Assembly: GCA_031290135.1 (NCBI GenBank)
Contig: JAITOE010000013.1
Location: 1 to 48,867 of the forward strand
DNA from: Eubacteriales Family XIII. Incertae Sedis bacterium
GTDB taxonomy: Bacteria; Bacillota; Clostridia; Peptostreptococcales; Anaerovoracaceae
Reading direction: 5' to 3'
DNA: 48,867 nucleotides
Shown here: piece after piece, positions 2,837 through 37,787 of the stretch
Position numbering within the stretch: position 1 is the first letter of the stretch
Layout: every line of letters begins with the position of its first letter
Program-made: the position numbers and the translations under genes
The notes under the pieces: generated by a model
Databases searched by the model: none
What the model saw: only the letters and a program-made list of their open reading frames with translations
Told to the model about the DNA's origin: nothing

Positions 2837-2842
2837 GCGCCA

Positions 2843-2984
2843 CGTCATTGCGAGGAGCGAAGCACCCCCGTCATTGCGAGGAGCGAAGCACCCCCGACAT
2901 TGCGAGGAGCGAAGCGACGACGCTACCCAGAGGCGCTGGATTGCTCCGCTGCGCTCGCAACGACAGACGCCCCGCCATTGCGGA
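2843..2984. repeat. Family-1 palindromic repeat cluster: three tandem 26-bp left arms CGTCATTGCGAGGAGCGAAGCACCC, one complementary right arm (..GCGCTCGCAACGAC..) and a partial extra arm
   Basis: Arms start at 2843, 2869 and 2895. The right arm CTGGATTGCTCCGCTGCGCTCGCAACGACAG lies at 2936-2966. The same arm sequences recur at 37743, 39148 and 42356. Confidence 0.85.
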
Positions 2985-6681: not shown

Positions 6682-6868
6682 GCTGCGGGACTGGCGTAAC
6701 CCTCCGGGTCTGGGCGACTGACGCCTATGCGGGCGGCGCAGAGCGCCTTGTATACGGCAGCAAAGCTGCCGTATAAGGTTCGCTTAGCTATTTCCCGCCT
6801 ACGGTGGGAAATAGAGCGAGACCATTATGCCCGCAATCCCGCCCTACGGGTTACGTCCGCCCCGCAGC
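6682..6868. repeat. Family-2 palindromic element (terminal inverted repeats GCTGCGGGACTGGCGTAACCC / GGGTTACGTCCGCCCCGCAGC) carrying a 75-bp nested insertion
   Basis: The core CTGACGCCTATGCGGGCGGCGCAGAGCGCCTTGTAT ... GCCCGCAATCCCGCC(C)TACGGGTT is shared with 40507-40616. The extra 6754-6828 forms two hairpins and is flanked by TAT/TAT. Confidence 0.85.
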
Positions 6869-6908
6869 CGCGAAAATACGAAGATTCATAAACAATGGGA
6901 GGAAGAAC

Positions 6909-11228: not shown

Positions 11229-11258
11229 CCGGCAGGCAGAAGGGAGGTCTTGACAGGG

Positions 11259-12152
11259 ATGGACATCGAAAGCATCAGAACCTTCTATACGGTGGCCCAA
11301 TACAAGAGCTTTCAAAAAGCAGCGGACATTCTTGTCCTTACGCAGTCCGGGGTCAGCAGGCGGATCAGCGGCCTTGAAAACGAACTGGGCCATCTGCTTT
11401 TCGTCAGGACGCATCAGTCTGTTTCGCTCAGCAAGTATGGCGAGGAGTACTTTCCCTACGCAAAACGCATCTTAAAAATACAGGACGAGTGGGTGAACGC
11501 GCCGAACAACGTAAAAGACGACACGATCAAAGTCGCGATCCCGTTTTCCATGAATCGCTTTTTCCCCGAAATGTTCACAAAATATATTAACAGCTATAAA
11601 GTCCCCATCCGGGTGCACGGCGCGAATTCCAACGAAATTTACGAAATGCTTATTGACCGCACCATCGACGTAGGCATCACGTCGGCCGTTTTTCCAAGCC
11701 CGCAAATCACCTACGACGCGATTTATAAAGAGAAGATGGTTTGTGTCGCAAACGCTGAAGTCCAAATGAAACACATCCGCAGCGGCGTGATCGTCAAACC
11801 GCCGCTTCCTTTCGTCCTCTGTAAAATGCATAGCTTCAAAGTGCATCCATGGGACGCGATGATCGACTCAATCAATACAAATTCGTTGGTCGAAACCGTT
11901 TTCACGGTGAATTTTTTTGAATTGACAAGAACGCTCGCAAAAAAGGGCTTAGGCGCGACGGTTTTGCCTTATACGGAAGTGATACATGAATTGGAGTCCG
12001 GCGAACTGGCGGAACTCCATGTGCCGAACATGGTGCTTCCGATGCGGATCACCTATATGGCCACGAACAAACAAATTCAAAAAATCAAGAGCGTCGAGCA
12101 ATTCAAAACGGCGCTCATCGACCACTGTAAGGCGCTGCCAACGAATGCATAG
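11259..12152 (+). CDS. LysR-family transcriptional regulator
   Basis: N-terminal HTH (IRTFYTVAQYKSFQKAADILVLTQSGVSRRISGLE) plus a LysR substrate-binding domain. An alternative TTG start exists at 11250. Confidence 0.9.
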   Translation: MDIESIRTFYTVAQYKSFQKAADILVLTQSGVSRRISGLENELGHLLFVRTHQSVSLSKYGEEYFPYAKRILKIQDEWVNAPNNVKDDTIKVAIPFSMNRFFPEMFTKYINSYKVPIRVHGANSNEIYEMLIDRTIDVGITSAVFPSPQITYDAIYKEKMVCVANAEVQMKHIRSGVIVKPPLPFVLCKMHSFKVHPWDAMIDSINTNSLVETVFTVNFFELTRTLAKKGLGATVLPYTEVIHELESGELAELHVPNMVLPMRITYMATNKQIQKIKSVEQFKTALIDHCKALPTNA

Positions 12153-12250
12153 CGCCTCTTTTTTTCTTTCTTAAAAGACCTCTCGCCGTGTGCCTTCCAT
12201 TCACATAAAAAGGCGTGAGCTCCCAAATCCGACGGTTCTACATACCTAAG

Positions 12251-12286
12251 ATTCATAACATTCATAACATTCATAACATTCATAAC
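12251..12286. repeat. Tandem repeat (ATTCATAAC)x4 inside a copy of the recurrent intergenic motif
   Basis: Four perfect 9-bp units at 12251, 12260, 12269 and 12278. Other copies of the motif carry a single unit. Confidence 0.95.
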
Positions 12287-12294
12287 AGTAACTC

Positions 12295-12315
12295 ATAATG
12301 ACAATCCGTCATTAT
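12295..12315. promoter_or_regulatory. Perfect palindrome ATAATGAC-N5-GTCATTAT, candidate LysR-type operator
   Basis: An 8-bp inverted repeat with T-N11-A-compatible geometry. It lies 20 bp upstream of the predicted -35 of the M24a operon and directly downstream of the LysR gene. Confidence 0.45.
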
Positions 12316-12334
12316 GACATGCCAAAAAACCGTT

Positions 12335-12363
12335 TTACATGTGCGGTTCCATATGATTACAAT
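12335..12363 (+). promoter_or_regulatory. Sigma-A-type promoter for the M24a/DUF4392 genes
   Basis: TTACAT (12335-12340), 17 bp, TACAAT (12358-12363). Confidence 0.45.
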
Positions 12364-12469
12364 GTCATTAGAGCAGTTGAGGAAAAGGCTTCTCATACAT
12401 TTCCTGTTAAAAAACCCACTTTAGGCACGATGAAAAATGAAAAGGGAACAACGCAAAGGAGGCACAAAC

Positions 12470-13651
12470 ATGAAATATGACCGCTATGCGCCCAATCTGA
12501 CAATCACCAGCAAGGCAGAATTTGTCCGGCGCCGGGAAACTGTGCAGGCGAAAATGCAGGAGCAGGGCGTAGACTGCATTCTCCTGTATGGCAGTTACCT
12601 GCGTCAGGGCGGAGCCATTCGCTATTTTGTAGACTTCCCCACGGGAGGAACCAACGCGCTGTACGCCATTCTTCCGAAAGAAGGAGAGATCGCCCTCTTT
12701 GGTCATGGCAACAAGGGCGCGAAAGCCGTTCCTCCCGGCATCGCGGGCGATGCGGAAATCAATTTTGCTTATCCCTACGCCGCCATCGCAGGTTTTACTT
12801 TGCCTGCCCTGATGGAGGAAGTTGCCCGCTATTGCAAGAAGCATGGGTTCAGAGTTGCGGGCCTCTACCGTACAGGCATGACGCCTTACGACTTTGTCAA
12901 GGCTGCCACCGAGGCCAACCCTGGCACGGAGTTGGTCGGCGTGGACGACGTCATCGACCGGATCATGGCGGTGAAAAGCCCCGAGGAAATCGAAATTTGC
13001 AAATATGTCGCCCGCATTCACGATGATATCTATTCCTGTGTGCGCGCGCTCGTAAAGCCCGGCCAGCGTGAAAAGGATTTACGGAACAAGATCACCTATA
13101 TCTGCAACGATCTCGACTGCGAAAGCCTTAATATAATGATCGGTTCGGGCAATCCGATGGCGAAGCACAAGGGCGATTCTGCCCAAAACCGGATGCTTCA
13201 GGATGGCGACTATGTGGATTTGTTGCTTGAAATCAGCACCGTAGGCGGTTACTGGGGCGAGATCAGCCGTATCATCAGCCTCGGCGAACCTGACCCTGAG
13301 ATCGTTCATTTGAATGACCTGACCATCGAGATTCAAACCCAATTAGCTGACGCGGCGCGCCCTGGGGTTCCCGCCAAGCGGATGCTTGAAATGCTGCACG
13401 AGTTCCAGGCTGCCCATGACTGCAAGCCGGAAACCCGTTTTTTCGGTCATGGACAGGGTCTCGACCTGACGCAGCGGCCCATGTTCATTGAGGATGAGAC
13501 CATGGTATTCGAAGAGAACATGTTTGTCGCGATTCACCCGGACATGGACAATGGCCATATGCGCGCTTTCACCACGGACAATTTTCTGATCACGAAAGAT
13601 GGCGGCATCCGGCTTAACAAGTTTCCGCATGGCATTATCGTGATCGACTAA
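12470..13651 (+). CDS. Creatinase/prolidase-fold (peptidase M24 family) protein, paralog A, non-canonical active-site positions
   Basis: GGAGG RBS, then ATG 12470. About 393 aa with N-terminal creatinase_N-like plus pita-bread domains. GHGQGLD is retained, but the protein reads AIHPD and TTDN where canonical enzymes have IEPG and xED. Confidence 0.75.
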   Translation: MKYDRYAPNLTITSKAEFVRRRETVQAKMQEQGVDCILLYGSYLRQGGAIRYFVDFPTGGTNALYAILPKEGEIALFGHGNKGAKAVPPGIAGDAEINFAYPYAAIAGFTLPALMEEVARYCKKHGFRVAGLYRTGMTPYDFVKAATEANPGTELVGVDDVIDRIMAVKSPEEIEICKYVARIHDDIYSCVRALVKPGQREKDLRNKITYICNDLDCESLNIMIGSGNPMAKHKGDSAQNRMLQDGDYVDLLLEISTVGGYWGEISRIISLGEPDPEIVHLNDLTIEIQTQLADAARPGVPAKRMLEMLHEFQAAHDCKPETRFFGHGQGLDLTQRPMFIEDETMVFEENMFVAIHPDMDNGHMRAFTTDNFLITKDGGIRLNKFPHGIIVID

Positions 13652-13707
13652 ATTGGCAGCACAAGCAAGTAAATTTTCGCGGTTTTTTCTATAAGGAGGT
13701 GCTAAAA

Positions 13708-14811
13708 ATGGCTCTCGAATATGATATTGAACTGGCAGAAACTGTAGGTGAAATCGTAGACCGCCTGATCACGGTGCAGATCGCGGGCGCCGGCGGCGGC
13801 GCGGCAAAGACCGCAAAACCGATCTGCCCGCAGTTATATGACGCGGCGCGCGCGGCGCAGGGCGACAAAGCGCTCACATTCCTTGCCGCAAAGGCAATTA
13901 TGGAGAATGTGCAGCCAAGGGACACGGTTGCCTTGAGCGCCGGGCTCATGATAGCGCCCTCCATGCGCGAAGAGGTTGACGGGGTGCTTGGAATTGTCGG
14001 CCTGGCCAGGGCGGTTGCGCTTGGGTGCGGCGCTACGCCGGTCATCCTGACGGAAGACACCAACCTTCCCCGTGTCGAATGGGTCGTGAAAGCCGCCGGC
14101 CTTAATCCGCAGCCTATAGACATTGCGCTTCAATTGCCGTATGCGGTCGGCATGGTCGTTCTGCCCAGGGATCCGGAAAAAACCGTGCAGGCGATGAAGG
14201 ACCTTTATGCGAAAGCCAGGCCAAAGGTATTGGTTGTGTCTGAAAAAATGGGACCGTCAGACATCGGCATCTATCGGACCGGCCCCGGATTCGATCTTTC
14301 AAAGATCGCGGGCAAGACACAAGAAATGGTCAATACGCTGAAGGAGCTTGGCACAATCACGATTGGCATCGGCGACGGCGGCAATGAAGTCGGAATGGGG
14401 CTGATCAAGGAAGACATCCGCCGTATCTTCTCCGGCGACAGCGCGGCGGCCACCGTGACGGACATTCTGATTACAGCGGCCACCGGAAATCTTGGCGCCT
14501 ATGGAATCGAGGCTGTGCTGGCTGCGGCATATGGGCTGGAAGAAGTTCTTCATGGCGTGGAGATCGAGAAACAGATGGAACTCGGCTCAATCTTCGGCGG
14601 TCTTATCGATCCGCAAGCTGGCATTGCGAACGGCTGGACGGACACAATGGAACCGTGTGTGGCAGAAGCGATCATTTTGCTGCTGCAACATCTGGTTCGC
14701 AACAGGCTTGCAAAGAAAGATACGGAGAAAGCCGCGCGCAAGAAGGCCCGCGAGTTCACAAAAGAGCAAACCCAGGCGGTTATTGATGAATGGGAAAAAA
14801 AACTATCATGA
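13708..14811 (+). CDS. DUF4392 / D-glutamate-cyclase-like protein (tentative family call)
   Basis: AAGGAGG RBS, then ATG 13708. The IGIGDGGNEVGMG motif is recalled from DUF4392-type proteins. Lys-rich C-terminal tail. The family assignment needs an HMM check. Confidence 0.5.
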   Translation: MALEYDIELAETVGEIVDRLITVQIAGAGGGAAKTAKPICPQLYDAARAAQGDKALTFLAAKAIMENVQPRDTVALSAGLMIAPSMREEVDGVLGIVGLARAVALGCGATPVILTEDTNLPRVEWVVKAAGLNPQPIDIALQLPYAVGMVVLPRDPEKTVQAMKDLYAKARPKVLVVSEKMGPSDIGIYRTGPGFDLSKIAGKTQEMVNTLKELGTITIGIGDGGNEVGMGLIKEDIRRIFSGDSAAATVTDILITAATGNLGAYGIEAVLAAAYGLEEVLHGVEIEKQMELGSIFGGLIDPQAGIANGWTDTMEPCVAEAIILLLQHLVRNRLAKKDTEKAARKKAREFTKEQTQAVIDEWEKKLS

Positions 14812-14830
14812 TAAACAGATAGACGGAAAG

Positions 14831-14873
14831 TTCTGTAATCGAATGTCTTATTCGGTTACAGAATTTTATTTTT
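14831..14873 (+). terminator. Intrinsic terminator between the DUF4392-like gene and M24 paralog B
   Basis: TTCTGTAATCGAAT-GTCT-TATTCGGTTACAGAA stem of about 14 bp, followed by TTTTATTTTT. Confidence 0.7.
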
Positions 14874-14888
14874 GAAAGGGGGTTTGTG

Positions 14889-16070
14889 ATGAACCTTGAC
14901 AGATATGCCCCGTTGATTTCGCCGACAAGCGAAAAAGAACTCATGCGACGCCGCGGCGCGGTTCAGTCCGCGCTTCGCGAACAAGAGGTTGATTGCGTGC
15001 TTTTGTATTCGAGTTATCTCAGGGCGAGCGGCGCGATCCGGTATTTCCTTGATTTCCCGACAGCAGGGACACACGCGCTATACGGCATTTTGCCAGCTGA
15101 AGGACAGCTGAGCGTGTTCGGCCACGGACACAAGGGCGCAACGACGGTTCCAAAGAGTGTCGCGTTCGATCTCGAACTCAATTACGCGTATCCGTTTGGC
15201 ATTACGTATCCGTTCACGTTGCGTTATATCTTTGACACGGTCGCCGATTATGCAAAGAAAAAGAAATTCAAGAACATAGGCATCTATCGCCGCGGGCTTT
15301 TGCCGTATGAATTCGTCCGTTGCCTCGCTGACGATGTTGACGGTGTAACACTTACGGATGTCGATGAAATGATCGATCCGATCATGGCGGCGAAATCCCC
15401 GGAAGAGATCGAGTATCACAAGTATGCCGTTGAACTTCACGATAAGATCTACGCCGCGCTGCCAACGATTGTGCGTGCCGGGAAACGGGAAAAAGACATT
15501 GCCAATGAAATCCAAAAAATCGCGACGGATTTTGATTGTGAAGGTTTGAATATCATGATCGGCTCCGGCAACCCGCTCGCGCACCACAAGCATTATTTTT
15601 TCCAGAACAGGCTGATCGAAGAAGGTGATTATATCGATTTGCTTGTGGAAGTCAGCGGGCCCGGAAACTATTATGGCGAGCTGTCCCGCATGTGGAAGCT
15701 CGGCGGCGATCCGTCGAAGGAATTTCTGCAGTTAAATGAAGATTCGATCAAGATTCAAAGCATTCTTGCCGATGCGGCCCGTCCGGGCGTGCCTGCCTCG
15801 CGGTTGATGGAAGTGCTGCATGCGTTTCAGGCCGAGAGGGGCTATAAACTGGAGGATCGTTTTTTTGGCCATGGACAAGGCGTGGATCTCGTACAGCGTC
15901 CCTTGTTTGACACGAAGGAGACGATGACGTTACAGGAAAACATGTTTGTCTCGATTCATCCGGCATTGGAGAACGATACAATCTGGGCATTTAACACGGA
16001 CAATTACCTCATCACGAAAGACGGCGCGGTTCGCCTGAACAAAACACCGCAGGGAATATTTGTCGTCTAA
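14889..16070 (+). CDS. Creatinase/prolidase-fold (M24 family) protein, paralog B
   Basis: Collinear with paralog A by eye (NLDRYAP.., GAIRYF.DFPT.GT.ALY.ILP, GHGQGVD, SIHPA, NTDN). ATG 14889 follows AAGGGGG. Confidence 0.75.
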   Translation: MNLDRYAPLISPTSEKELMRRRGAVQSALREQEVDCVLLYSSYLRASGAIRYFLDFPTAGTHALYGILPAEGQLSVFGHGHKGATTVPKSVAFDLELNYAYPFGITYPFTLRYIFDTVADYAKKKKFKNIGIYRRGLLPYEFVRCLADDVDGVTLTDVDEMIDPIMAAKSPEEIEYHKYAVELHDKIYAALPTIVRAGKREKDIANEIQKIATDFDCEGLNIMIGSGNPLAHHKHYFFQNRLIEEGDYIDLLVEVSGPGNYYGELSRMWKLGGDPSKEFLQLNEDSIKIQSILADAARPGVPASRLMEVLHAFQAERGYKLEDRFFGHGQGVDLVQRPLFDTKETMTLQENMFVSIHPALENDTIWAFNTDNYLITKDGAVRLNKTPQGIFVV

Positions 16071-16250
16071 GCGCCGGCTAAGCGCTGATTGCCTGACGGC
16101 GGCAAGAAAAGGAGGCAAGTGTGGAAAGCGTTCCACACGCCGCCGGAGGCAGTCAAACGATAATTTGCCCCATTTGGTGCGGATTGTGTTACAACAATTA
16201 TTTCCATGAATGAATTTATGCAGCCACAGCGTGGCGGAATGGGGCAAATA

Positions 16251-17555
16251 ATGGATCCGAATATGACAATTGCCTTGGTTGGTGTAATTGTGATGGTGAT
16301 ATTGATCCTCTTGAGGGTTCCGATTGCCGTCGCAATGGGCGTTGTCGGGGTCGTTGGGTTCATCTACGTTGCAGGATTGCCGGGTGCCGTCGGTTTGCTG
16401 AAGACGGTGCCCTATACTTCCGTAAAAGACTATTCATTGAGTGTCATCCCCCTATTCATATTGATGGGAAATTTTGCGTTGTCCGCCGGGCTGAGCAGGG
16501 AATTGTATGCCTTGGGCTATAAATTGGTGGGACATTTGCCGGGCGGGCTTGCCGTGGCTACGATTCTTGCATGTGCGGGCTTCGGCGCAATTTGCGGATC
16601 GAGTCCCGCAACTGCGGCAACGATGGGAACGGTTTCGATTCCGGAGATGCGCAAATACAAATATGCGCCGTCGCTGGCATGTGGATGCGTTGCCGCCGGA
16701 GGCTGTCTGGGGATGCTCATCCCGCCAAGCGTCGGCTTCATCATCTACGGCATATTGGTCGGGGAATCGATAGGCAAACTTTTTTCGGCTGGCATAATGG
16801 CGGGTATTTTACTGATGCTGTTATACTGCATCGTGATCCTGGTTATTGCAATTAAAAATCCCGAAATGGCGCCGCGCGGCGAAAGAGCATCGTTCCGCGA
16901 AATCCTGATAGCGCTAAAAAACATTTGGGCAGTCATCTTATTGTTCGTGCTGGTCATAGGCGGCTTGCTTGCCGGTTTCTTTACGGCGACGGAATGTGCC
17001 GCAATTGGCGCTTTCTGCGCGTTAGGCATCGCGGTTCTTCGCCGCACGATGTCCTGGAAAGATTTCAAAACCGCGCTCTTCAACACCTTGAAGACCACGG
17101 CGATGATTTTCGCGATCATGATCGGAGCCTATTTGTTCGGCTATTTTCTGACGGTTACGCGGTTGCCGATGCTGATGGCAAGTCTCATCACTGAATCCGA
17201 CCTCAACCGATACGTCGTCATTATGCTGATCTTCTTTGTGTATTTGTTCCTGGGATGCATCATGGATAGCTTGGCGATGATCTTGATTACGGTTCCGATC
17301 TTCTTTCCCGGCGTGATGGCTCTCGGTTTTGATCCGATTTGGTTTGGCGTTTTCGTTATATTTGTCATCAACCAGGGGCTCCTGACGCCGCCGGTCGGCA
17401 TGAATGTCTTTGTCATCCGGGGCATCACGAAAGATGTGCCGATTCATACAATATTCAGGGGCGTCATGCCGTTCTGGCTGGCGATTCTTGCGGCGGTGCT
17501 TATTATTTTGGCAGTTCCGGATATCGTGTTGTTTTTGCCACGTTTGGCATCCTGA
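16251..17555 (+). CDS. dctM: TRAP transporter large permease (DctM family), system 1
   Basis: About 12 or more TM segments, DctM-like throughout, paralogous to 20140-21474. The start is uncertain (16206 to 16263). Confidence 0.85.
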   Translation: MDPNMTIALVGVIVMVILILLRVPIAVAMGVVGVVGFIYVAGLPGAVGLLKTVPYTSVKDYSLSVIPLFILMGNFALSAGLSRELYALGYKLVGHLPGGLAVATILACAGFGAICGSSPATAATMGTVSIPEMRKYKYAPSLACGCVAAGGCLGMLIPPSVGFIIYGILVGESIGKLFSAGIMAGILLMLLYCIVILVIAIKNPEMAPRGERASFREILIALKNIWAVILLFVLVIGGLLAGFFTATECAAIGAFCALGIAVLRRTMSWKDFKTALFNTLKTTAMIFAIMIGAYLFGYFLTVTRLPMLMASLITESDLNRYVVIMLIFFVYLFLGCIMDSLAMILITVPIFFPGVMALGFDPIWFGVFVIFVINQGLLTPPVGMNVFVIRGITKDVPIHTIFRGVMPFWLAILAAVLIILAVPDIVLFLPRLAS

Positions 17556-17664
17556 CAAAAAAAGCAAACGTGATGAAAAACGGTTATGCCCGCTCCGTAG
17601 CGACGGCTCTACATACCTGAGTTTCATAACAGTTATTTTGATAATACTGAAAAGGAGAAAATGG

Positions 17665-18750
17665 ATGAAAATGAAAGCACATGGGAGGATTTTAGCCTTG
17701 TTTTGCGTTGTTATGCTCGTTGTGGCGTCGCTTGCAGCCTGCGGCGGCAACAACAACACGGCTTCGACGCCACCGCCGGCAACTACGCCGGAACCCGAGG
17801 CGCCTGTTACCGTTACCCTGAAGCTGACGCACCATCAAAATCCGGGCACATCCGGAGATGCGGTCATCAATGAGTGGACGAAGCAGGTCGAAGATGCATC
17901 GAACGGTACCGTTAAAATTGAAGTGTACGGCGCGCAAACGCTTGGCAAGCAAGCGGATTTCTATGATATGGTCATCAATGGGACTGCGGACATCGGCTAT
18001 TGCTTCATTCCCAATTTCCCCGGGCAGTTTCCGGTAAGCGAAGGCGTGGCGTTGCCCGAGATGGGACTCACCTCAGCGCTTCAGGCCAGTCAGGTTCTGG
18101 AAGGATTCTATGAAACTTCGGAGCTGATGCAGGCCGAGTACAAAGATGTACACCCCCTGTTCTTCCATTCGCACGATCCTGCGCCGATTGGCACTGTATC
18201 AAAGAAGGTCACATCCGCGGGGGATATCAAGGGATTGAATCTGCGTGTCATAGGCGACGGACAGATCAAAATGGTGCAGGCCCTCGGCGGCGGAACCGTC
18301 GCGATTGCGTCAACGGAACTCTATACATCGCTTGAAAAAGGCGTCATCGACGGTTACGCGATTGGCTGGGAAGGCATCATGGCATTCAAACTGCCCGAAG
18401 TCGCGAAATATATCTTTGACTGCAACCTCTATTGCGGCGGTTTTATGATGATTATGAGCAACACTTCCTGGAATAGCCTTCCTCCTGAAGCACAGGCGGC
18501 GTTCGATGCGGTTAGCGGCATGAAGGCCGCGGAACTCTTCGGGAACACATGGGATGAAATGGTCAAAAAGTCGAGGGCAGAAGCCGAAGCCACGGTTGAA
18601 GTCACTGAGATCAGCGCCGAAGAACAAGCGAAGTGGGGCGAGATTGCCGGACCTATCCATGAAGAGTGGGCTGCAAATTTGCGCGCAAAAGGCATCGACG
18701 GCGATCTTGCATACCAGCAGATTCAGGAGCTTGTCAAGAAGTACGCCTAA
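17665..18750 (+). CDS. dctP: TRAP solute-binding lipoprotein (DctP family), system 1
   Basis: AAGGAG RBS, then ATG 17665. Signal peptide plus lipobox SLAACGG and a Pro/Thr linker, then a DctP-like body. Confidence 0.85.
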   Translation: MKMKAHGRILALFCVVMLVVASLAACGGNNNTASTPPPATTPEPEAPVTVTLKLTHHQNPGTSGDAVINEWTKQVEDASNGTVKIEVYGAQTLGKQADFYDMVINGTADIGYCFIPNFPGQFPVSEGVALPEMGLTSALQASQVLEGFYETSELMQAEYKDVHPLFFHSHDPAPIGTVSKKVTSAGDIKGLNLRVIGDGQIKMVQALGGGTVAIASTELYTSLEKGVIDGYAIGWEGIMAFKLPEVAKYIFDCNLYCGGFMMIMSNTSWNSLPPEAQAAFDAVSGMKAAELFGNTWDEMVKKSRAEAEATVEVTEISAEEQAKWGEIAGPIHEEWAANLRAKGIDGDLAYQQIQELVKKYA

Positions 18751-18770
18751 GAGGCCTAAGAGGTAACGAA

Positions 18771-19370
18771 ATGGAAAAGAACAACCTCTTTTCGCAGGGA
18801 GCCGGGAAAGCAGCGGACGGAATATATCGTTTTGTCGTGCCGATAAGCAAGTATTTGAGCGTTGTAGGCGTCGGCGCCACCCTCTTTGTGATGACGATGA
18901 TGGTTGTCGATGTGATCAGCCGGAAAGCGTTCCGCCACCCAATTATCGGCGCGTATGAACTCGAGGAATTTGGCATGGTATTGATGATAGTCCTCGCGTT
19001 TGCGTACTTGCAGGTATTCAAGGGCCATATTGGCGTTGAGCTTTTGGTGGAACGTTTCCCGAAAAGGGCGCGGGCGATTTTAGAGGTTTTTGCGAACCTG
19101 GTCTGCCTGTTGTTTTGGGGCGCGATTGCCTATGAGGCGTTCTTTCAGGCGATTGACCAAAAGGCGAAAGGCATAACCACCGCGAATCTTCTGATTCCGC
19201 TGTGGCCGTTCATCGTCATTCTTGGGATCGGCTGTACCTGTTTCGCGATTATGCTGGCCGCAGACGTGCTGAGGTCGATCCAGATGGCAACAGCGCCGAA
19301 AAAATATCTGGATGCCGTGCTGCCTGATGTAGGAACGTTTTCGGCGGAAGATTATGTCGCAGGAATTTGA
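18771..19370 (+). CDS. dctQ: TRAP small permease (DctQ family), system 1
   Basis: About 200 aa with 4 TM segments (VVDVISRKAFRHPIIGAYELEE motif region). ATG 18771 follows AAGAGG. Confidence 0.8.
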   Translation: MEKNNLFSQGAGKAADGIYRFVVPISKYLSVVGVGATLFVMTMMVVDVISRKAFRHPIIGAYELEEFGMVLMIVLAFAYLQVFKGHIGVELLVERFPKRARAILEVFANLVCLLFWGAIAYEAFFQAIDQKAKGITTANLLIPLWPFIVILGIGCTCFAIMLAADVLRSIQMATAPKKYLDAVLPDVGTFSAEDYVAGI

Positions 19371-19382
19371 GAGGAAATATCA

Positions 19383-20126
19383 ATGAACGGCATGAATGCT
19401 TCTTTGAAAAGCAAGCCGCGCGTGGGTTTGATCGTTCCCAGCGTGCAGTCGGTCACAGAACCGTTATTCAACAAAATCCATGGGGATTCATTTGATTTCC
19501 TGACAGCCCGTGTACGGCTGACCGGCGGCAAGATCGAGCACCTTATTGCCATGGAAAAAACGATTCCCGATGCCGTGATGTCCTTGGTGGAAGCTGACGT
19601 GGACAGGCTGGTGTATTGCTGCACGGCTTCCGGGGCAATTTCAGGCAAGGAGCACGAGATGGCGCTCAGCCATGAAATCCAAAGGGAATTTCACGTTCCC
19701 GTTCTTACGACGATGATGAGCTGCCTTGAGGCGTTCAAAAGCATTTCAGCCAATAGTGTTGCCATTGTTGCGCCCAATATCGCGCCAATAAATGATAAAG
19801 AACGAGAATACATCGAACAGAACGGGTTCCGTGTGCTTTCTGATGCCGGCTTTAACATGGAAGACGGCAGATTGTTTTCTTTTATACCGACGGAAGAGAT
19901 CGAAGCATTCGCGTTGAAGCACTGGAACGACCAGGCGGATGTTCTTTTCATGAGCTGTATGAACTGGCAAGCCACGAAAGTAATGTTTGAGGTTCAGGAT
20001 CGTATCGGAAAGCCGGTTGTAACATCCCATGCTGCTACGCTTTGGCAAATTTACTGCACTTTAAAAGAAGAAACAGGGTATCTTGATTATCTGGCTTTAA
20101 TCCAGGATAAAGTGAAAAAGAGCTGA
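19383..20126 (+). CDS. Asp/Glu/hydantoin-racemase superfamily protein of the maleate isomerase / arylmalonate decarboxylase (EutA-like) type
   Basis: About 247 aa. Two Cys motifs (VYCCTASG and FMSCMNW) sit at the spacing of the catalytic Cys pair of maleate cis-trans isomerase. Confidence 0.7.
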   Translation: MNGMNASLKSKPRVGLIVPSVQSVTEPLFNKIHGDSFDFLTARVRLTGGKIEHLIAMEKTIPDAVMSLVEADVDRLVYCCTASGAISGKEHEMALSHEIQREFHVPVLTTMMSCLEAFKSISANSVAIVAPNIAPINDKEREYIEQNGFRVLSDAGFNMEDGRLFSFIPTEEIEAFALKHWNDQADVLFMSCMNWQATKVMFEVQDRIGKPVVTSHAATLWQIYCTLKEETGYLDYLALIQDKVKKS

Positions 20127-20139
20127 CAAGCATATCTTA

Positions 20140-21474
20140 ATGCGGAGGAGGGCTTTTGATTTGAATCCTATAGCCGTGGGAATCATAGGGATGGTTATTT
20201 TGATCGCCCTCCTTTTCATGGGTTTACATGTCGGCATTACCATGATGCTCATCGGATTTTTTGGATATGCATATATCGTTCATACGCAAGGCGCAATCGG
20301 GATGTTGAAAGGCGTCCTATATTCGACGGGAAGCAATTACAGCCTTTCCGTAATACCGATGTTTGTTTTGATGGGGCATTTTGCGTATTATTCAGGGTTG
20401 AGCAAAGAGCTATATAATGTCGCGTATAAATGGCTTGGGCGGCTTCCCGGAGGGTTGGCGGTCGCGACGATTGGCGCCTGTGGTTTTTTTGCCGCGATAT
20501 GCGGTTCAAGCACGGCAACCGCCGCAACGTTTGGCACGGTCACATTGCCTGAAATGAAGCGGTATAAATACCATAATTCCCTGGCGACAGGATCTATTGC
20601 GGCCGGGGGAACGCTTGGGATTTTGATACCCCCGAGCGTCGGTTTTATTTTGTACGGCATCATATCAGGTCAATCCATAGGCCGGCTTTTCGCCGCAGGT
20701 TTCCTGCCCGGTTTTCTTCTTGCCTTTTGCTTTATTACGGTAATCATTTTTCAGGTGAAACGAAACCCGGCGCTGGCGCCCGAGATTGAAAAATCCTCAT
20801 TTAGGGAAAAAATGATTGCGCTGGGGGGCGTAGTTCCTGTTTTGGTTATTTTCATTTTTGTTATCGGAGGAATGTTCGGCGGGTTATTTACTGCCAATGA
20901 AGCTTCAGCTGTAGGGGCGATTGGCGCATTCATATATTTAATCATAAAGAAACAGGCGTCGTTTGAAAATATCAAGAAAGCGCTGGAAGCCACGGTAAAG
21001 ACGACGGCCATGATTTTTCTTATTTTAATCGGGGCTTACGCTTTTGGTTATTTTCTGGCAATTACCACCATCCCCACTGCCTTAGCTTCTTTTATTTCAG
21101 GTCTTGACGTCAACCGGTACGTGATTTTGATCGCAATTCTGATTTTTTACGCGCTCTTAGGATGCATCATGGACTCTTTGGCAATGGTTCTTCTAACCGT
21201 GCCTATTTTCTTCCCGGTGATCAGCGGTTTGGGATTTGATCCGATTTGGTATGGTGTGCTTATGGTTATGGTCATGGAAATGGGGCTGATCACTCCCCCT
21301 GTCGGCATGAATCTCTATATCATCAAGGGCGTCGCAGGCGATGAAATTGGAATCAAGGAAATCATACAAGGGGCTTTCCCCCATGTAATTGCAATGATGG
21401 TTGCCGTTATTATTGTAGTTATTTTTCCGATTATCGCATTGGCGCTGCCCAATCTTTTTTATGGGTCGGTGTGA
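20140..21474 (+). CDS. dctM: TRAP transporter large permease (DctM family), system 2
   Basis: Paralog of 16251-17555. The more likely start is TTG 20161, 8 nt after GGAGGAGGG. Confidence 0.85.
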   Translation: MRRRAFDLNPIAVGIIGMVILIALLFMGLHVGITMMLIGFFGYAYIVHTQGAIGMLKGVLYSTGSNYSLSVIPMFVLMGHFAYYSGLSKELYNVAYKWLGRLPGGLAVATIGACGFFAAICGSSTATAATFGTVTLPEMKRYKYHNSLATGSIAAGGTLGILIPPSVGFILYGIISGQSIGRLFAAGFLPGFLLAFCFITVIIFQVKRNPALAPEIEKSSFREKMIALGGVVPVLVIFIFVIGGMFGGLFTANEASAVGAIGAFIYLIIKKQASFENIKKALEATVKTTAMIFLILIGAYAFGYFLAITTIPTALASFISGLDVNRYVILIAILIFYALLGCIMDSLAMVLLTVPIFFPVISGLGFDPIWYGVLMVMVMEMGLITPPVGMNLYIIKGVAGDEIGIKEIIQGAFPHVIAMMVAVIIVVIFPIIALALPNLFYGSV

Positions 21475-21504
21475 TTGGAAAAAACGAAAGAGGGAGACCG
21501 GGGA

Positions 21505-22026
21505 ATGATACTTGTGAGAATCCTATATAAAATCAGCAATATATTGAATAAGGTCAGCATGATCACTGTTTTCGCGATGATGGCGCTCATGGTTCTTGAC
21601 GTGTGCGTTCGATTCGTTACAGGGAAACCGATTCTTGGGACGTTTGAAATCGTGGAAGTTTTAATGGTTGTCATAGTTTTTATGAGTTTAGCGAATACGC
21701 AAATAAAAAAGGGACACATCAATTTAGATATGTTTATCACATCTATGCCGAAGAAAATATCAGGAATATTGTATATCGTCATTTATGCATTGGCAGTCGT
21801 GATGAGCGCGATCATGGTGAGAGCTTCTTTCCGGGAAATGCTTGGTGTATACCACTCCCATAAAACAACAGCTACTTTGCAGTTTTCGGTGTTCCCGTTC
21901 CATATTATTTTGTTTGTCGGAGTGGTTTTCCTGTTCTTGGTTTTCATCGTTGACATGGTTCTTGCGTTCGGGAATATGCGTGCCATTTTTGGAAGAGAAG
22001 GGTCAAAGGCCGCAGAAGACGGATGA
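21505..22026 (+). CDS. dctQ: TRAP small permease (DctQ family), system 2
   Basis: GGGAG RBS, then ATG 21505. 4 TM segments, with the VLDVCVRFVTGKPILGTFEIVE region typical of DctQ. Confidence 0.8.
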   Translation: MILVRILYKISNILNKVSMITVFAMMALMVLDVCVRFVTGKPILGTFEIVEVLMVVIVFMSLANTQIKKGHINLDMFITSMPKKISGILYIVIYALAVVMSAIMVRASFREMLGVYHSHKTTATLQFSVFPFHIILFVGVVFLFLVFIVDMVLAFGNMRAIFGREGSKAAEDG

Positions 22027-22088
22027 TTTTAGCTATGGTTATTTTGCGCTGCAGCAATGGAACAATAATATTAAAGGAGGAAAGAGAA

Positions 22089-23171
22089 ATGAAGAAAAGA
22101 TCAATGCTCGTAATGGCGACGGTTCTTGCGCTTTTGATGATTCTTGCCGCTTGCGGCGGGAGCTCAAGCCCTGAAAGCAGTGACAGTTCCGGAGGCGGAT
22201 CGGAGGGAGGATATGACGGCGAAACAATAGAACTGACTCTGAGCCATTTTAATCCCCCGACTGCAATTTCAGCCATGCAGCTTGAGGCATGGGCGAAACG
22301 CGTTGAAGACAGGGCTGAAGGAAAGATTAAGATCAACATCTTCCCCGGAGGCAGTCTTGGCGCGCCGCAAGACCACTACAATATGGCAAAAGAAGGCACA
22401 GTTGACATTGCATATACGTTCGTTGGAATTAATCCCGGCGTATTCCCGATCTCGGAAGGTTTTGGATTGCCAATGATCGGATTTGAAAATGCATGGCAGT
22501 CAAGCATGGCGATGGAAGACATGTATTTGAATAACGAAGATATGCAGAAAGAGTATGCGGATGTCAAACTAATGTACATTCAGTCGTTCGATCCTGCCAT
22601 CGTAGGTACAAACGGTAAAAAAATAGAAACCATGGAAGATCTGAAAGGCCTGAAACTAAGGATTACGGCCGGACCTGTCAACTCGTTCTTCACGAAACTG
22701 GGCGCGTCTCCCGTCACGGCCCCGGTCACTGAAATTTACACAAACCTGGAAAAAAAGATATTAGACGGTTTTTATGCTGATTCAACGTCATTGGTGGACT
22801 ATAAGCTTGCTGAACTTTCGACAAACATTTTGGACGGAAAGATTTGCGCAGGGCCGTTCATCATTGTTATGAATTTGGATAAATGGAATTCGCTTCCGGA
22901 TGACCTGAAAGCTTGTTTCGATGCTGAGAACGGGTTAGTCGCCACGGATAATTGCGGGAAAATGTGGGACGAGTACACAAAAGAAGTATATGCGGATCTT
23001 GAATCACAGGGCAAAGAGATCAACAGGCTGTCTGCCGAAGAACGCGCCCGCTGGGAAGAGCTTGCCGCGCAAGTTGCGCAGGAATGGATCGCGGATATGG
23101 ATGGAAAAGGCTACGACGGCCAAGCTCTTTATGACGAGATCATTGCGTATAAAGATAAATATGTTCAGTAA
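22089..23171 (+). CDS. dctP: TRAP solute-binding lipoprotein (DctP family), system 2
   Basis: AAAGGAGG RBS, then ATG 22089. Lipobox ILAACGG and a Ser/Gly linker. Paralogous to 17665-18750. Confidence 0.85.
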   Translation: MKKRSMLVMATVLALLMILAACGGSSSPESSDSSGGGSEGGYDGETIELTLSHFNPPTAISAMQLEAWAKRVEDRAEGKIKINIFPGGSLGAPQDHYNMAKEGTVDIAYTFVGINPGVFPISEGFGLPMIGFENAWQSSMAMEDMYLNNEDMQKEYADVKLMYIQSFDPAIVGTNGKKIETMEDLKGLKLRITAGPVNSFFTKLGASPVTAPVTEIYTNLEKKILDGFYADSTSLVDYKLAELSTNILDGKICAGPFIIVMNLDKWNSLPDDLKACFDAENGLVATDNCGKMWDEYTKEVYADLESQGKEINRLSAEERARWEELAAQVAQEWIADMDGKGYDGQALYDEIIAYKDKYVQ

Positions 23172-23208
23172 ACAAACAGTAAGCAAACGCAGCAGGCAAA
23201 ACAATGAA

Positions 23209-23237
23209 TTGACATGCTTTTCCGCAGATGATATAAT
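23209..23237 (+). promoter_or_regulatory. Consensus sigma-A promoter upstream of the CitE-like gene
   Basis: TTGACA (23209-23214), 17 bp, TGaTATAAT (-10 at 23232-23237). Confidence 0.6.
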
Positions 23238-23303
23238 TTAATTGCCGAATAGTGACATGCAATTTCAAAGAATGAAATTGCGAAACGCCAAATGCATATT
23301 ACC

Positions 23304-23454
23304 CCGGCCATTAAATGTAGCTACAAAGTGGCGAGGATTTTTTCCGCCAGCCAAGGCGGCAGGTTCCGCTGATACTGGGCGGTATCAACGGGTTCTGCCA
23401 ACGCAGGATGGCGGAAAAAAGACCGGCACGAATAACGATATTTAGTGGCCGTGG
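23304..23454. repeat. Family-3 long palindromic element (about 150 bp), copy A
   Basis: The core GAGGATTTTTTCCGCCAG..GGTTCCGCTGATACTGGGCGGTATCAACGGGTTC..GGCGGAAAAAAGACCGGC is near-identical to the reverse complement of 41341-41440. Outer arms are CCGGCCATTAAAT / ATTTAGTGGCCGTGG. Confidence 0.85.
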
Positions 23455-25722: not shown

Positions 25723-25739
25723 GAAGGGGTGCGGCGCGC

Positions 25740-34045: not shown

Positions 34046-34189
34046 TCATAGCTCCTCGCAACGACAAAGGACGTAGCGGTGTCCCGTAGCGACGGTTCTA
34101 CATACCTACAGATTCATAACAGTAACCTTTCCTCCGTGTTTGCGTTCGCTCCATACGAAATAAAACACGCCAAAAAAAGAATTATTCGC

Positions 34190-37726: not shown

Positions 37727-37787
37727 GGGCGGGCGTACTCTCCGTCATTGCGAGGAGCTGGATTTCTTCGCTCCACTCGCAATGACG
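37727..37787. repeat. Family-1 hairpin, single copy with GGGCGGGCGTACTC flank
   Basis: CGTCATTGCGAGGAGC-TGGATTTCTTC-GCTCCACTCGCAATGACG. Confidence 0.85.

What the first reader, a model, noticed from the sequence alone, without database searches (positions are those of the whole stretch)
11250..23454. Lower-GC ~12 kb catabolic island: LysR + two M24-fold proteins + DUF4392-like + maleate-isomerase-like + two TRAP importers, no characterised pathway matches
About 25 bp after the GC-rich HD-GYP gene, the composition becomes visibly more AT-rich, especially at third codon positions and most strongly from 19.4 to 23.2 kb. It returns to flank-like GC at the CitE-like gene. Eleven co-directional, tightly packed genes lie between these points. 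There is no integrase or tRNA. The right edge is occupied by a 150-bp palindromic repeat, and the left intergenic region holds a tandemly expanded copy of a recurrent motif. The island combines an M24-fold hydrolase, an Asp/Glu-racemase-superfamily (EutA/maleate isomerase-like) protein, TRAP uptake and a dedicated regulator. That set recalls ectoine/hydroxyectoine catabolic clusters (DoeA/EutD, EutA, UehABC/TeaABC). However, DoeB/C/D and EutB/C are absent, and a DUF4392 (D-glutamate-cyclase-type) protein is present instead. This points to an undescribed route for a small cyclic or amidated amino-acid-derived carboxylate. TRAP systems generally take organic acids.
Basis: partly seen in the sequence, partly recalled or inferred. 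Interest (0 to 1): 0.7.

Follow-up and report, generated by a model that had tools for sequence, protein, structure and literature searches.

The report
Acquired TRAP-linked catabolic operon, unknown substrate
A 12-kb block of eleven genes with clearly foreign base composition sits in the genome of an uncultured Clostridia bacterium; it looks like a horizontally acquired operon for importing and breaking down small organic acids not yet identified, using two enzyme families whose reactions nobody has worked out.

Summary
Eleven genes (11259-23171) have GC3 of 0.50-0.66. All 20 flanking genes have 0.69-0.85, with no overlap (p=6e-6), and tetranucleotide distance doubles. Gene content is as described: LysR, two paralogous M24 proteins, DUF4392, an Asp/Glu-racemase-superfamily protein and two TRAP systems.

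The ectoine analogy fails. All Eut/Doe equivalog models score far below cut-off. The host is a monoderm Clostridia, since both TRAP binding proteins are lipoproteins, and known ectoine degraders are Proteobacteria.

New points:
- The M24 proteins belong to a rare subfamily (94 clusters among 1.84 billion). Their canonical D-D-H-E-E metal site is replaced by a conserved E-E-H-H site.
- The DUF4392 protein keeps all six metal ligands of TON_0340.
- The racemase-like protein keeps both catalytic cysteines.
- The same cluster, equally GC-poor against GC-rich flanks, occurs in two other metagenomic genomes.
- It is built from two shuffled modules.
- A CitE-like lyase is its neighbour in two genomes.

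No paper in the searched library links these families. Best reading: an acquired, LysR-controlled operon for two related carboxylates, substrate unknown. It is a new variant of a known kind and moderately interesting, mainly as a handle on DUF4392.

The parts
11259..12152 (+). LysR-type transcriptional regulator (ATG at 11259; the ORF opens at TTG 11250). First gene with low GC3 (0.64).
   Evidence: Pfam HTH_1 and LysR_substrate. No NCBIfam equivalog is reached. Translation. A LysR gene is also next to the cluster in L003, L006 and L087.
12230..12285 (+). Copy of a host-specific intergenic motif (GCGACGGyTCTACATACCTrAGwTTCATAACA), with its tail TTCATAACA repeated four times.
   Evidence: the repeat finder family D5 and alignment A2. 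Other copies lie at 17601, 34090 and 42293(-). It is absent from all 96 fetched loci.
12293..12317 (.). Dyad TCATAATGAC-N5-GTCATTATGA, a candidate LysR operator, centred about 65 nt upstream of the predicted transcription start.
   Evidence: Read from the sequence and listed as an 11-pair inverted repeat. The ATGAC-N5-GTCAT core recurs upstream of the M24 gene in L001. Its function is inferred.
12334..12363 (+). Promoter-like site (TTTACA-18-TACAAT) ahead of M24a.
   Evidence: Consensus scan, 10 of 12 matches. This is a pattern match only.
12470..13651 (+). M24a: pita-bread-fold enzyme of a rare M24 subfamily with an E-E-R-H-Q-H-(T/C)-D active-site signature.
   Evidence: Pfam Peptidase_M24 and Creatinase_N. 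Subfamily invariants E254, E264, R267, H327, Q329 and H356. The signature is kept in most of 172 relatives. Model pLDDT is 93.7. The fold is about equally close to prolidase, creatinase, DoeA and DddP.
13708..14811 (+). DUF4392 / TON_0340-family di-metal enzyme (stand-alone, 367 aa).
   Evidence: Pfam GLUCM-like_C, 136.6 bits. E89, D91, E179, D223, E227 and D312 are invariant and correspond to the six TON_0340 metal ligands (PMC5132392). Model pLDDT is 87.8, and only TON_0340 matches it in the PDB.
14827..14867 (+). Hairpin with a 19-pair stem followed by a T-run, between DUF4392 and M24b. Possible terminator or attenuator.
   Evidence: Terminator-like scan. Its function is not tested.
14886..16070 (+). 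M24b: paralog of M24a (55% identity) with the same altered site (E255, E265, H329, H358, T371).
   Evidence: BLASTP. Residue-by-residue alignment to prolidase 1PV9. Its nearest DNA relative is the single M24 gene of L087.
16206..17555 (+). TRAP large permease DctM1.
   Evidence: Pfam DctM, 335.7 bits; TIGR00786 scores 329.7, above the 268.45 cut-off.
17601..17636 (+). Second in-island copy of the host-specific motif, in the DctM1-DctP1 spacer.
   Evidence: 86% identical to the 12230 copy.
17665..18750 (+). TRAP solute-binding protein DctP1. It is a lipoprotein: signal peptide, lipobox LAAC, then a T/P-rich linker.
   Evidence: Pfam DctP and NF037995. N-terminus read, with a GGAG seven nt before the ATG.
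18771..19370 (+). TRAP small permease DctQ1.
   Evidence: Pfam DctQ, 91 bits. Start read.
19383..20126 (+). Asp/Glu-racemase-superfamily enzyme with two cysteines (maleate-isomerase/EutA-like). First gene of the lowest-GC module.
   Evidence: Pfam Amdase. It scores below the EutA and arylmalonate decarboxylase equivalog cut-offs. The nearest solved structure is maleate isomerase 2XEC. The YCCT and SCMNW cysteines align with the catalytic pair and are kept in L001 and L006.
20140..21474 (+). TRAP large permease DctM2 (51% identical to DctM1).
21475..22026 (+). TRAP small permease DctQ2.
   Evidence: Pfam DctQ.
22086..23171 (+). TRAP solute-binding lipoprotein DctP2 (38% identical to DctP1).
   Evidence: Pfam DctP. 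Lipobox LAAC followed by an S/G linker. Comparison with DctP1.
23209..23237 (+). Perfect sigma-70 consensus (TTGACA-17-TATAAT with an upstream TG) between the island and the CitE-like gene.
   Evidence: 12 of 12 matches. This is a pattern match only.
23306..23450 (.). Palindromic repeat element at the right compositional boundary. A second copy lies at 41338-41445.
23491..24381 (+). CitE-like CoA-ester/HpcH-family lyase. Its composition is host-like (GC3 0.815), but it may be a functional partner of the cluster.
   Evidence: Pfam HpcH_HpaI. It scores below the citE and RipC equivalog cut-offs. A 73%-identical gene, together with CitF, flanks the same cluster in L001.

Best explanation
The region is a horizontally acquired, LysR-controlled catabolic operon in an uncultured monoderm Clostridia bacterium. 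It is assembled from two modules.

Module A (12470-19370) holds M24a, DUF4392, M24b and the TRAP system DctM1-P1-Q1. Module B (19383-23171) holds a two-cysteine racemase/isomerase and the TRAP system DctM2-Q2-P2.

Proposed working:
- The two lipoprotein-anchored TRAP importers take up two related small carboxylates, for example stereoisomers or close analogues.
- The module-B enzyme converts the second compound into the form that module A handles.
- The atypical M24 enzymes (E-E-H-H metal site) carry out the committed cleavage or ring-opening step.
- The DUF4392 di-metal enzyme carries out a second metal-dependent hydrolytic step.
- The resulting 2-oxo/2-hydroxy or CoA-activated acid is passed on, possibly to the adjacent CitE-like lyase.

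Shown here: the foreign composition, the gene families, the conserved active-site residues, the lipoprotein anchors, the modular synteny in other genomes and the rarity of the M24 subfamily. Inferred: the order of enzyme steps, the role of LysR and its operator, the division of labour between the two transporters, and the chemical class of the substrate. I favour a nitrogen-containing (amide, amidine or lactam) carboxylate over a plain di/tricarboxylate, but only narrowly.

The confidence of 0.55 applies to the general statement, an acquired TRAP-fed catabolic operon for small carboxylates. The specific order of enzyme steps deserves about 0.25.
For: Foreign composition is shown.

The same cluster has the same low-GC3 signature against GC-rich flanks in two independent assemblies. 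In L001 the cluster has GC3 0.52-0.64 against flanks of 0.86-0.91. In L006 the cluster GC is 0.46 against a flank of 0.55-0.60. In low-GC L003 a LysR-DUF4392-M24 core matches its surroundings. That fits a low-GC donor pool.

The host's own motif occurs inside the island at 12230 and 17601 and outside it at 34090 and 42293. The island is therefore truly resident in this genome.

The module boundary at 19383 coincides with a step in GC3. The modules are ordered differently in L001 than in the window and L006.

M24 and DUF4392 are adjacent in all six contexts of this clade: the window, L001, L003, L006, L086 and L087.

Active sites are conserved in the M24 subfamily, in DUF4392 and in the racemase-like protein.

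More distant DUF4392 relatives sit next to TRAP or TctC carboxylate importers, Amdase-like genes, asparaginase and hydantoinases. Their neighbours are enriched in RidA, PLP enzymes, amidohydrolases and racemases.

A candidate operator dyad lies at about -65 from a promoter-like site, and its core is shared with L001.
Against: - No substrate, transcript or activity data exist.
- The only biochemistry for the DUF4392 family is a Mn-dependent phosphatase activity of TON_0340 on generic phosphate compounds (PMC5132392). That does not obviously fit a TRAP-fed hydrolytic route.
- Outside this clade, the M24 subfamily is linked to 2-hydroxyacid dehydrogenases, class II aldolase, glycolate-oxidase-like genes and CitMHS/DASS/MFS/TRAP transporters, with few nitrogen enzymes. 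This weakens the C-N-cleavage reading.
- There is no integrase, tRNA or direct repeat to mark an insertion.
- No sister genome was available to show presence or absence of the island.
- A strong hairpin at 14827-14867 and gaps of 109-317 nt mean this may be more than one transcription unit.
- The CitE-like gene has host-like composition and its own consensus promoter, so its link to the cluster is uncertain.
Confidence: 0.55

Rival explanations
1. Ectoine/hydroxyectoine (or a close tetrahydropyrimidine) catabolism. The M24 protein would be the ectoine hydrolase, the racemase-like protein would be EutA, and the TRAP systems would be UehABC/TeaABC equivalents.
For: The family-level resemblance is M24, an Asp/Glu-racemase-superfamily protein and TRAP. 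The M24a model superposes on DoeA with TM about 0.75.
Against: TIGR02993 (DoeA) scores 22.9 and 19 bits against a cut-off of 613. TIGR02990 (EutA) scores 102 against 318. No EutB, EutC, EutE/DoeB, DoeC, DoeD or EnuR family occurs anywhere in the window. The M24 fold is equally close to prolidase, creatinase and DddP. The host is Clostridia, whereas ectoine consumers were found only in Proteobacteria (PMC5924519). TeaA and UehA are not among the solved binding proteins that match at E<=1e-10.
Confidence: 0.03
2. A nitrogen-free organic-acid pathway. The TRAP systems would import an unsaturated or hydroxy di/tricarboxylate, or an aromatic acid. The two-cysteine enzyme would act as a maleate-type cis-trans isomerase. 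The M24-like and DUF4392 metal enzymes would act as hydratase, lyase or esterase. The CitE-like lyase (with CitF in L001) would cleave the product.
For: The nearest solved relative of the racemase-like protein is maleate isomerase, with both cysteines kept. A CitE-like gene is adjacent in the window and in L001, where CitF is present too. The M24 subfamily is elsewhere linked to 2-hydroxyacid dehydrogenases, class II aldolase, glycolate-oxidase-like genes and CitMHS/DASS transporters. The M24 fold can act as a lyase, as in DddP.
Against: Neighbours across the DUF4392 family lean towards amide and amino-acid chemistry. The characterised non-peptidase M24 enzymes that the model matches besides DddP (creatinase and DoeA) cleave C-N bonds. 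The CitE-like gene has different composition and its own promoter.
Confidence: 0.22
3. Salvage of unusual peptides or amino-acid conjugates, for example peptidoglycan-derived D-Glu dipeptides or N-(2-hydroxyacyl) amino acids. The M24 proteins would act as dipeptidase-like hydrolases, the racemase-like enzyme as a D/L-amino-acid racemase, and DUF4392 on a D-Glu or 5-oxoproline-type product.
For: Prolidases are the closest solved relatives of the M24 proteins by sequence. DUF4392 is the C-terminal domain of mammalian D-glutamate cyclase (PMC5339696). M24-subfamily neighbours include 2-hydroxyacid dehydrogenases and an enolase-superfamily (MR_MLE) protein. Peptide-type binding proteins are frequent DUF4392 neighbours.
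Against: The canonical prolidase metal ligands are not kept. The DUF1445 half of D-glutamate cyclase is absent. Uptake is by TRAP, not by a peptide ABC or POT system. TRAP binding proteins with a peptide ligand are rare (from my own knowledge).
Confidence: 0.15
4. Not an acquisition. Either the contig is an assembly chimera joined at repeats, or the genes are native with atypical codon usage.
For: The window is a metagenomic contig. A repeated palindromic element sits exactly at the right boundary. There is no integrase, tRNA or flanking direct repeat.
Against: A motif unique to this genome occurs both inside the island (12230, 17601) and outside it (34090, 42293). The left junction is a clean 30-nt spacer with no repeat. 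Two other independent assemblies show the same cluster as a GC-poor block in GC-rich flanks. Flanking membrane and soluble genes alike have high GC3.
Confidence: 0.07

Closest known systems
Ectoine/5-hydroxyectoine catabolic clusters (uehABC-eutABCDE of Ruegeria pomeroyi; doeABCD of Halomonas elongata)
   Same: A substrate-specific TRAP importer is encoded beside an M24-fold ring-opening hydrolase and an Asp/Glu-racemase-superfamily protein, under a dedicated regulator. The logic of hydrolase followed by a second hydrolase (DoeA then DoeB) is the template for my proposed M24-then-DUF4392 sequence.
   Different: No protein reaches the Eut/Doe equivalog scores. EutB, EutC, EutE, Atf, Ssd and EnuR are absent. 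The regulator is LysR. There are two M24 paralogs with an E-E-H-H site, a DUF4392 enzyme and two TRAP systems. The host is Clostridia, not Proteobacteria.
[quoted passage not shown]
   Same: The fold matches (TM about 0.82 over the TON_0340 chain). All six acidic metal ligands and the GDGGNE motif are conserved.
   Different: The protein is about 100 residues longer, with extra N- and C-terminal helices. It is stand-alone, with no DUF1445 partner. It lies in a TRAP-linked catabolic operon next to an M24 enzyme. The only reported activity in the family is a generic Mn-dependent phosphatase activity.
M24B pita-bread enzymes: prolidase/aminopeptidase P, creatinase, ectoine hydrolase DoeA, DMSP lyase DddP
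   Same: Two-domain architecture of a creatinase-like N-domain plus a pita-bread C-domain, about 390 residues. The His of the metal site is conserved.
   Different: The five canonical ligands D, D, H, E, E are E, E, H, H, T(C) here. R267, Q329 and D370 are also conserved in the subfamily. Identity to every solved member is 15-22%. The subfamily often occurs as tandem pairs.
Maleate cis-trans isomerase / arylmalonate decarboxylase / hydantoin and Asp/Glu racemases
   Same: The Pfam Amdase fold matches. Both catalytic cysteines align with those of maleate isomerase.
   Different: The score is below the arylmalonate decarboxylase and EutA equivalog thresholds. Identity to maleate isomerases is low (E 8e-14). 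The substrate is unknown.
DctPQM-type TRAP transporters of Proteobacteria
   Same: All three components are present twice. The large permeases pass the TIGR00786 cut-off.
   Different: Both binding proteins are lipoproteins with flexible linkers, which is the monoderm arrangement. The gene orders M-P-Q and M-Q-P differ from the usual P-Q-M.

Membership tests
Ectoine/hydroxyectoine catabolic cluster (Eut/Doe) | Ectoine hydrolase EutD/DoeA (TIGR02993, cut-off 613 bits) | tested here: not met
   M24a scores 22.9 bits and M24b 19.0 bits.
Ectoine/hydroxyectoine catabolic cluster (Eut/Doe) | EutA racemase (TIGR02990, cut-off 318 bits) | tested here: not met
   102.2 bits.
Ectoine/hydroxyectoine catabolic cluster (Eut/Doe) | Companion genes EutB (PLP dehydratase), EutC (cyclodeaminase-like), EutE/DoeB (deacetylase), DoeC/DoeD and the EnuR regulator | tested here: not met
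   None of these families appears in the Pfam scans of the window's long + strand ORFs.
Ectoine/hydroxyectoine catabolic cluster (Eut/Doe) | Host among the Proteobacteria (all 539 predicted consumers in the cited survey) | tested here: not met
   The binding proteins are lipoproteins, a dockerin protein is present, and the best named PheS hits are Clostridia/Oscillospiraceae MAGs. The survey is cited in PMC5924519.
DUF4392 / TON_0340 family (PF14336) | Pfam gathering score, and the six invariant acidic metal ligands | tested here: met
   136.6 bits against a cut-off of 27.9. E89, D91, E179, D223, E227 and D312 are invariant in 24 homologs and match E59, D61, E115, D157, E161 and D246 of TON_0340.
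DUF4392 / TON_0340 family (PF14336) | TON_0340 fold | tested here: met
   Foldseek finds only TON_0340 chains at E<=1e-11, with TM 0.74-0.84 normalised to the target.
D-glutamate cyclase (DGLUCY) | DUF1445 domain fused to or encoded beside DUF4392 | tested here: not met
   No DUF1445 (PF07286) hit in the protein or in any window ORF scanned.
M24 metallopeptidases (prolidase/aminopeptidase P type) | Pita-bread fold | tested here: met
   Pfam PF00557 scores 85.5 and 81.1 bits. The model matches prolidases at E about 1e-26.
M24 metallopeptidases (prolidase/aminopeptidase P type) | Di-metal ligand set Asp, Asp, His, Glu, Glu | tested here: not met
   The aligned residues are Glu, Glu, His, His, Thr. 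These are invariant or nearly so across the subfamily.
Maleate cis-trans isomerase / two-base racemases (Asp/Glu racemase superfamily) | Two catalytic cysteines on opposite faces of the active site | tested here: met
   The cysteines of YCCT and SCMNW align with the catalytic pair of 2XEC and 4FQ7. They are conserved in L001 and L006. The second position depends on a one-residue register shift between the two template alignments.
Arylmalonate decarboxylase | NF052327 equivalog score (cut-off 225) | tested here: not met
   69.4 bits. The first cysteine is also present, whereas this enzyme has a glycine there (from my own knowledge).
TRAP transporter (DctPQM type) | P, Q and M components encoded together, with the large permease above the TIGR00786 cut-off | tested here: met
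   Two full sets are present. DctM1 scores 329.7 and DctM2 335.0 against a cut-off of 268.45.
TRAP transporter (DctPQM type) | Carboxylate-clamping arginine in the binding protein | not tested
   I did not map the residue. It would need a structure-based alignment to a liganded binding protein.
Genomic island (horizontally acquired block) | Composition deviating from the host genome with sharp borders | tested here: met
Genomic island (horizontally acquired block) | Mobility marks: integrase, tRNA target, flanking direct repeats | tested here: not met
   No tRNA, no integrase family in the island and no flanking direct repeat. An IS200 transposase gene lies 10 kb downstream.
Genomic island (horizontally acquired block) | Presence/absence polymorphism among sister genomes | not testable with these tools
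   The host lineage was not found in the genome collection scan. Only unrelated hosts carrying the cluster were recovered.
Citrate lyase beta subunit / itaconate-degradation lyase RipC (for the neighbouring gene 23491-24381) | Equivalog scores (443.4 for citE; 375 for RipC) | tested here: not met
   219.6 and 137.2 bits. It is a CitE-like lyase of unknown specificity.

The most novel reading that the evidence does not exclude
DUF4392/TON_0340 proteins are an orphan family found in archaea, bacteria and, as half of D-glutamate cyclase, in vertebrates. In this reading they are catabolic metal-dependent hydrolases or cyclases for a small imported nitrogen-containing carboxylate. Here one works in obligate tandem with a previously unrecognised E-E-H-H class of M24 enzymes. 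Together they would define a new two-enzyme degradative route that spreads by horizontal transfer among anaerobic Clostridia.
Probability: 0.3. Interest if true: 0.7.

Novelty: new variant of a known kind. Interest (0 to 1): 0.5.

Why it matters
Transporter-linked catabolic islands are common, so the island itself is ordinary. The value lies in the enzymes it brings together.

DUF4392 is conserved from archaea to humans and has a solved structure, yet it has no known physiological substrate. Here, and in its relatives, it is tied to carboxylate importers, racemase-like enzymes and a rare M24 subfamily with a remodelled, conserved metal site.

That gives a short experimental path. Find the ligands of two binding proteins, then feed them to three soluble enzymes. 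This could assign a function to two uncharacterised enzyme groups. It could also shed light on what the second domain of mammalian D-glutamate cyclase does.

Tried and rejected
- **Ectoine pathway.** Rejected on equivalog scores, missing partner genes and host taxonomy.
- **Literature.** Six searches for a characterised pathway with DUF4392, TON_0340, glutamate cyclase with TRAP, or PF14336 found only the TON_0340 structure paper and the mouse D-glutamate cyclase paper. Searching for the PDB codes of the closest binding proteins found nothing useful. I recall that 7NSW, 7NRR and 7NR2 are TarP-type aromatic-acid binders. I could not verify this, so I do not rely on it.
- **Source genome.** The genome-collection scan did not recover it. 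Presence or absence in sister genomes could therefore not be tested.
- **Non-coding features.** Rfam and tRNA scans of the window were empty.
- **Recurrent motif.** I asked whether it is an IS200/RAYT-associated repeat. The nearby Y1 transposase scores as IS200, not as a REP-associated transposase. The motif is absent from all other loci. This is unresolved.
- **Recombination junction in the CitE-like gene.** Its GC3 is uniformly high at 0.76-0.86 along its length, so I found no junction.
- **Fold searches.** They did not place M24a closer to any one characterised M24 enzyme.

Full report
**Observation.** The compositional claim is correct and strong. In 1-kb windows GC falls from 0.57-0.60 to 0.42-0.56 between about 11.0 and 23.5 kb, then returns to 0.62. 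Gene by gene, GC3 is 0.495-0.657 for the eleven genes from 11259 to 23171. It is 0.690-0.848 for twenty flanking genes. The ranges do not overlap (Mann-Whitney U=0, p=6e-6). The tetranucleotide distance to the flank profile is 26-44 inside and 14-21 outside. Flanking membrane proteins have host-like GC3, so the dip is not a membrane-protein artefact. There are two tiers: GC3 0.58-0.66 up to 19370, and 0.50-0.56 from 19383 on.

There is no tRNA, no Rfam match and no integrase in the block. The right edge carries a roughly 145-nt palindromic element (-73 kcal/mol, z -7.75), with a second copy at 41338-41445. The LysR-M24a spacer carries a recurrent motif whose tail TTCATAACA is repeated four times.

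**Host.** Both TRAP binding proteins begin with a signal peptide, a lipobox (LAAC) and a Ser/Gly/Thr/Pro-rich linker. That is the arrangement used by bacteria without an outer membrane. The window also encodes a dockerin-bearing protein and an IS200 transposase, and all the long ORFs I annotated are on one strand. The best named PheS relatives are Clostridia and Oscillospiraceae MAGs at 48-56% identity. Closer hits at 68-77% are unnamed metagenomic proteins. The host is therefore an uncultured Clostridia lineage, not a marine proteobacterium.

**Acquisition.** The same cluster was recovered in other assemblies.
- L001 (metagenome) has M24-DUF4392-racemase-like-DctM2Q2P2-DctM1P1Q1-CitF-CitE.
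- L006 (a Gracilibacteraceae MAG) has LysR(-)-M24-DUF4392-DctM1-DctP1-racemase-like-DctM2-DctQ2.
- L087 has LysR-M24-DUF4392-DctM1.
- L003 has LysR(-)-DUF4392-M24-MFS.

In L001 the cluster has GC3 0.52-0.64 against flanks of 0.86-0.91. In L006 it has GC 0.46 against 0.55-0.60. In the low-GC L003 it matches its surroundings. Three GC-rich hosts thus carry the block as a GC-poor insert, which fits transfer from a low-GC donor pool.

An assembly chimera is unlikely. A motif found only in this genome occurs twice inside the island (12230, 17601) and twice outside it (34090, 42293).

The pieces are mosaic. Protein identity to L001 ranges from 77% (M24a) to 43% (the binding proteins). M24b is closest to the single M24 gene of L087. 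The unit racemase-like+TRAP2 changes position relative to TRAP1. The GC3 step at 19383 coincides with that module boundary.

**The enzymes.**

*M24a and M24b.* They are 55% identical. Aligned to Pyrococcus prolidase, the canonical ligands D209, D220, H284, E313 and E327 are E, E, H, H and T. In 28 relatives E254, E264, R267, H327, Q329 and H356 are invariant. In 172 relatives down to about 25% identity, about three quarters carry E-E-R-H-Q-H at the first six positions; the seventh is Cys or Thr in most of these and the eighth is usually Asp. An exhaustive search of 1.84 billion representatives finds only 94 clusters at E<=1e-30. The model (pLDDT 93.7) is equally similar to prolidases, creatinases, DoeA and DddP, at 15-22% identity. 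This is a distinct, rare, uncharacterised M24 subfamily.

Elsewhere the subfamily often occurs as tandem pairs. It sits next to a 2-hydroxyacid dehydrogenase or glycolate-oxidase-like genes, a class II aldolase, and a CitMHS, DASS, MFS or TRAP carboxylate transporter. Its product is therefore probably a 2-hydroxy or 2-oxo acid.

*DUF4392.* The protein keeps all six acidic metal ligands of TON_0340 and the GDGGNE motif. Its model (pLDDT 87.8) matches only TON_0340 in the PDB. The family has no known physiological substrate. TON_0340 shows a generic Mn-dependent phosphatase activity (PMC5132392). In mammals the domain is fused to DUF1445 in D-glutamate cyclase (PMC5339696). Relatives at about 40% identity lie next to TRAP or TctC importers, Amdase-like genes, asparaginase or hydantoinase A/B. 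Across 34 loci the commonest neighbours are peptide-type binding proteins, LysR, RidA, PLP enzymes, DctP, amidohydrolases, M24 and racemases.

*Racemase-like protein.* It aligns best with maleate isomerase and retains both catalytic cysteines. It is below threshold for both EutA and arylmalonate decarboxylase.

*TRAP systems.* The two systems are paralogous: DctM 51%, DctP 38% and DctQ 26% identity.

**Regulation.** A dyad, TCATAATGAC-N5-GTCATTATGA (12293-12317), lies about 65 nt upstream of the start predicted from a promoter-like site at 12334-12363. Its core recurs upstream of the M24 gene in L001. A 19-pair hairpin with a T-run separates DUF4392 from M24b. A perfect sigma-70 consensus precedes the CitE-like gene. 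These are pattern matches, not evidence of function.

**Interpretation.** The best-supported reading is an acquired, LysR-controlled operon of two modules. Each module has its own importer for a related carboxylate. The two-cysteine enzyme would adapt the second substrate to the M24-then-DUF4392 route. The product may go to the neighbouring CitE-like lyase, which is adjacent in two genomes but has host-like composition here.

Whether the substrate contains nitrogen is open. The DUF4392 contexts favour nitrogen and the M24-subfamily contexts do not. The ectoine analogy is rejected on model scores, missing partner genes and host taxonomy.

**Novelty and score.** The kind of system, a transporter-linked catabolic island, is well known. 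The enzyme combination and both enzyme subfamilies are uncharacterised, and no paper in the searched library connects them. I rate it a new variant of a known kind, interest 0.5. The main value is a tractable route to a function for DUF4392 and for the E-E-H-H M24 subfamily.

Noticed in passing
window 2829-2982, 37739-37787, 39136-39292, 42337-42444, 45407-45426: A family of GC-rich repeats built on CCGTCATTGCGAGGAGCGAAGC... and TGGATTGCTTCGCTGCGCTCGCAA occurs at five intergenic or gene-end sites, sometimes in tandem at 26-nt spacing. It looks like a REP-like extragenic element of this genome.
   Followed up: no
window 33412-33891 and 34090-34125: An IS200-type Y1 transposase gene (152.6 bits; it scores below cut-off for a REP-associated transposase) lies in a local GC dip. 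A copy of the recurrent motif GCGACGGTTCTACATACCT...TTCATAACAGTAAC sits about 200 nt downstream. The other copies are at 12230, 17601 and 42293(-). Whether the motif is an IS200 end or an independent small element is unresolved.
   Followed up: partly
window 6712-6753 and 40536-40577; 40507-40527 / 40596-40616: A 42-nt sequence is repeated at 98% identity 34 kb apart. At the second site it is embraced by a perfect 21-nt inverted repeat with a 68-nt spacer.
   Followed up: no
window 6898-6952: A tandem 12-nt repeat (GAACATGAAAAA-like, 3-4 copies) lies near the 5' end of the NMT1/THI5-like binding-protein gene.
   Followed up: no
window 30171-33233: A 1020-aa protein carries beta-helix repeats, carboxypeptidase-regulatory-like domains and a C-terminal type I dockerin. 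This suggests a cellulosome-like or scaffold-bound surface protein in this Clostridia lineage.
   Followed up: no
window 25707-27830: The PheT ORF is only 707 aa and its B3/4 domain starts at residue 114. The usual N-terminal tRNA-binding domain may therefore be missing or the start may be miscalled.
   Followed up: no
L019, L022, L025, L030, L032, L049, L050, L068: Many alphaproteobacterial and Chloroflexota genomes carry three DUF4392 paralogs in tandem or close together (26-35% identity to the window protein).
   Followed up: no
L004 (Celeribacter indicus CP004393, 2835842-2856987): A named, complete genome has DctPQM-Amdase-like-DUF4392-DctPQM-Asp/Glu racemase next to hydantoinase A/B, an isochorismatase-family gene, IclR and LysR. 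This would be a culturable organism in which to test DUF4392 function.
   Followed up: partly
L001 18641-21107 versus window 23491-24381: The CitE-like gene next to the cluster is 73% identical between the two genomes. It has island-like GC3 (0.54, with CitF 0.53) in L001 but host-like GC3 (0.815, uniform along the gene) in the window. I have no explanation for the same neighbour having opposite compositional status.
   Followed up: partly
M24 subfamily alignment, position 369 of M24a: The residue that replaces the last canonical Glu ligand is Cys in most of the subfamily but Thr in the clade that contains the window's two proteins.
   Followed up: no
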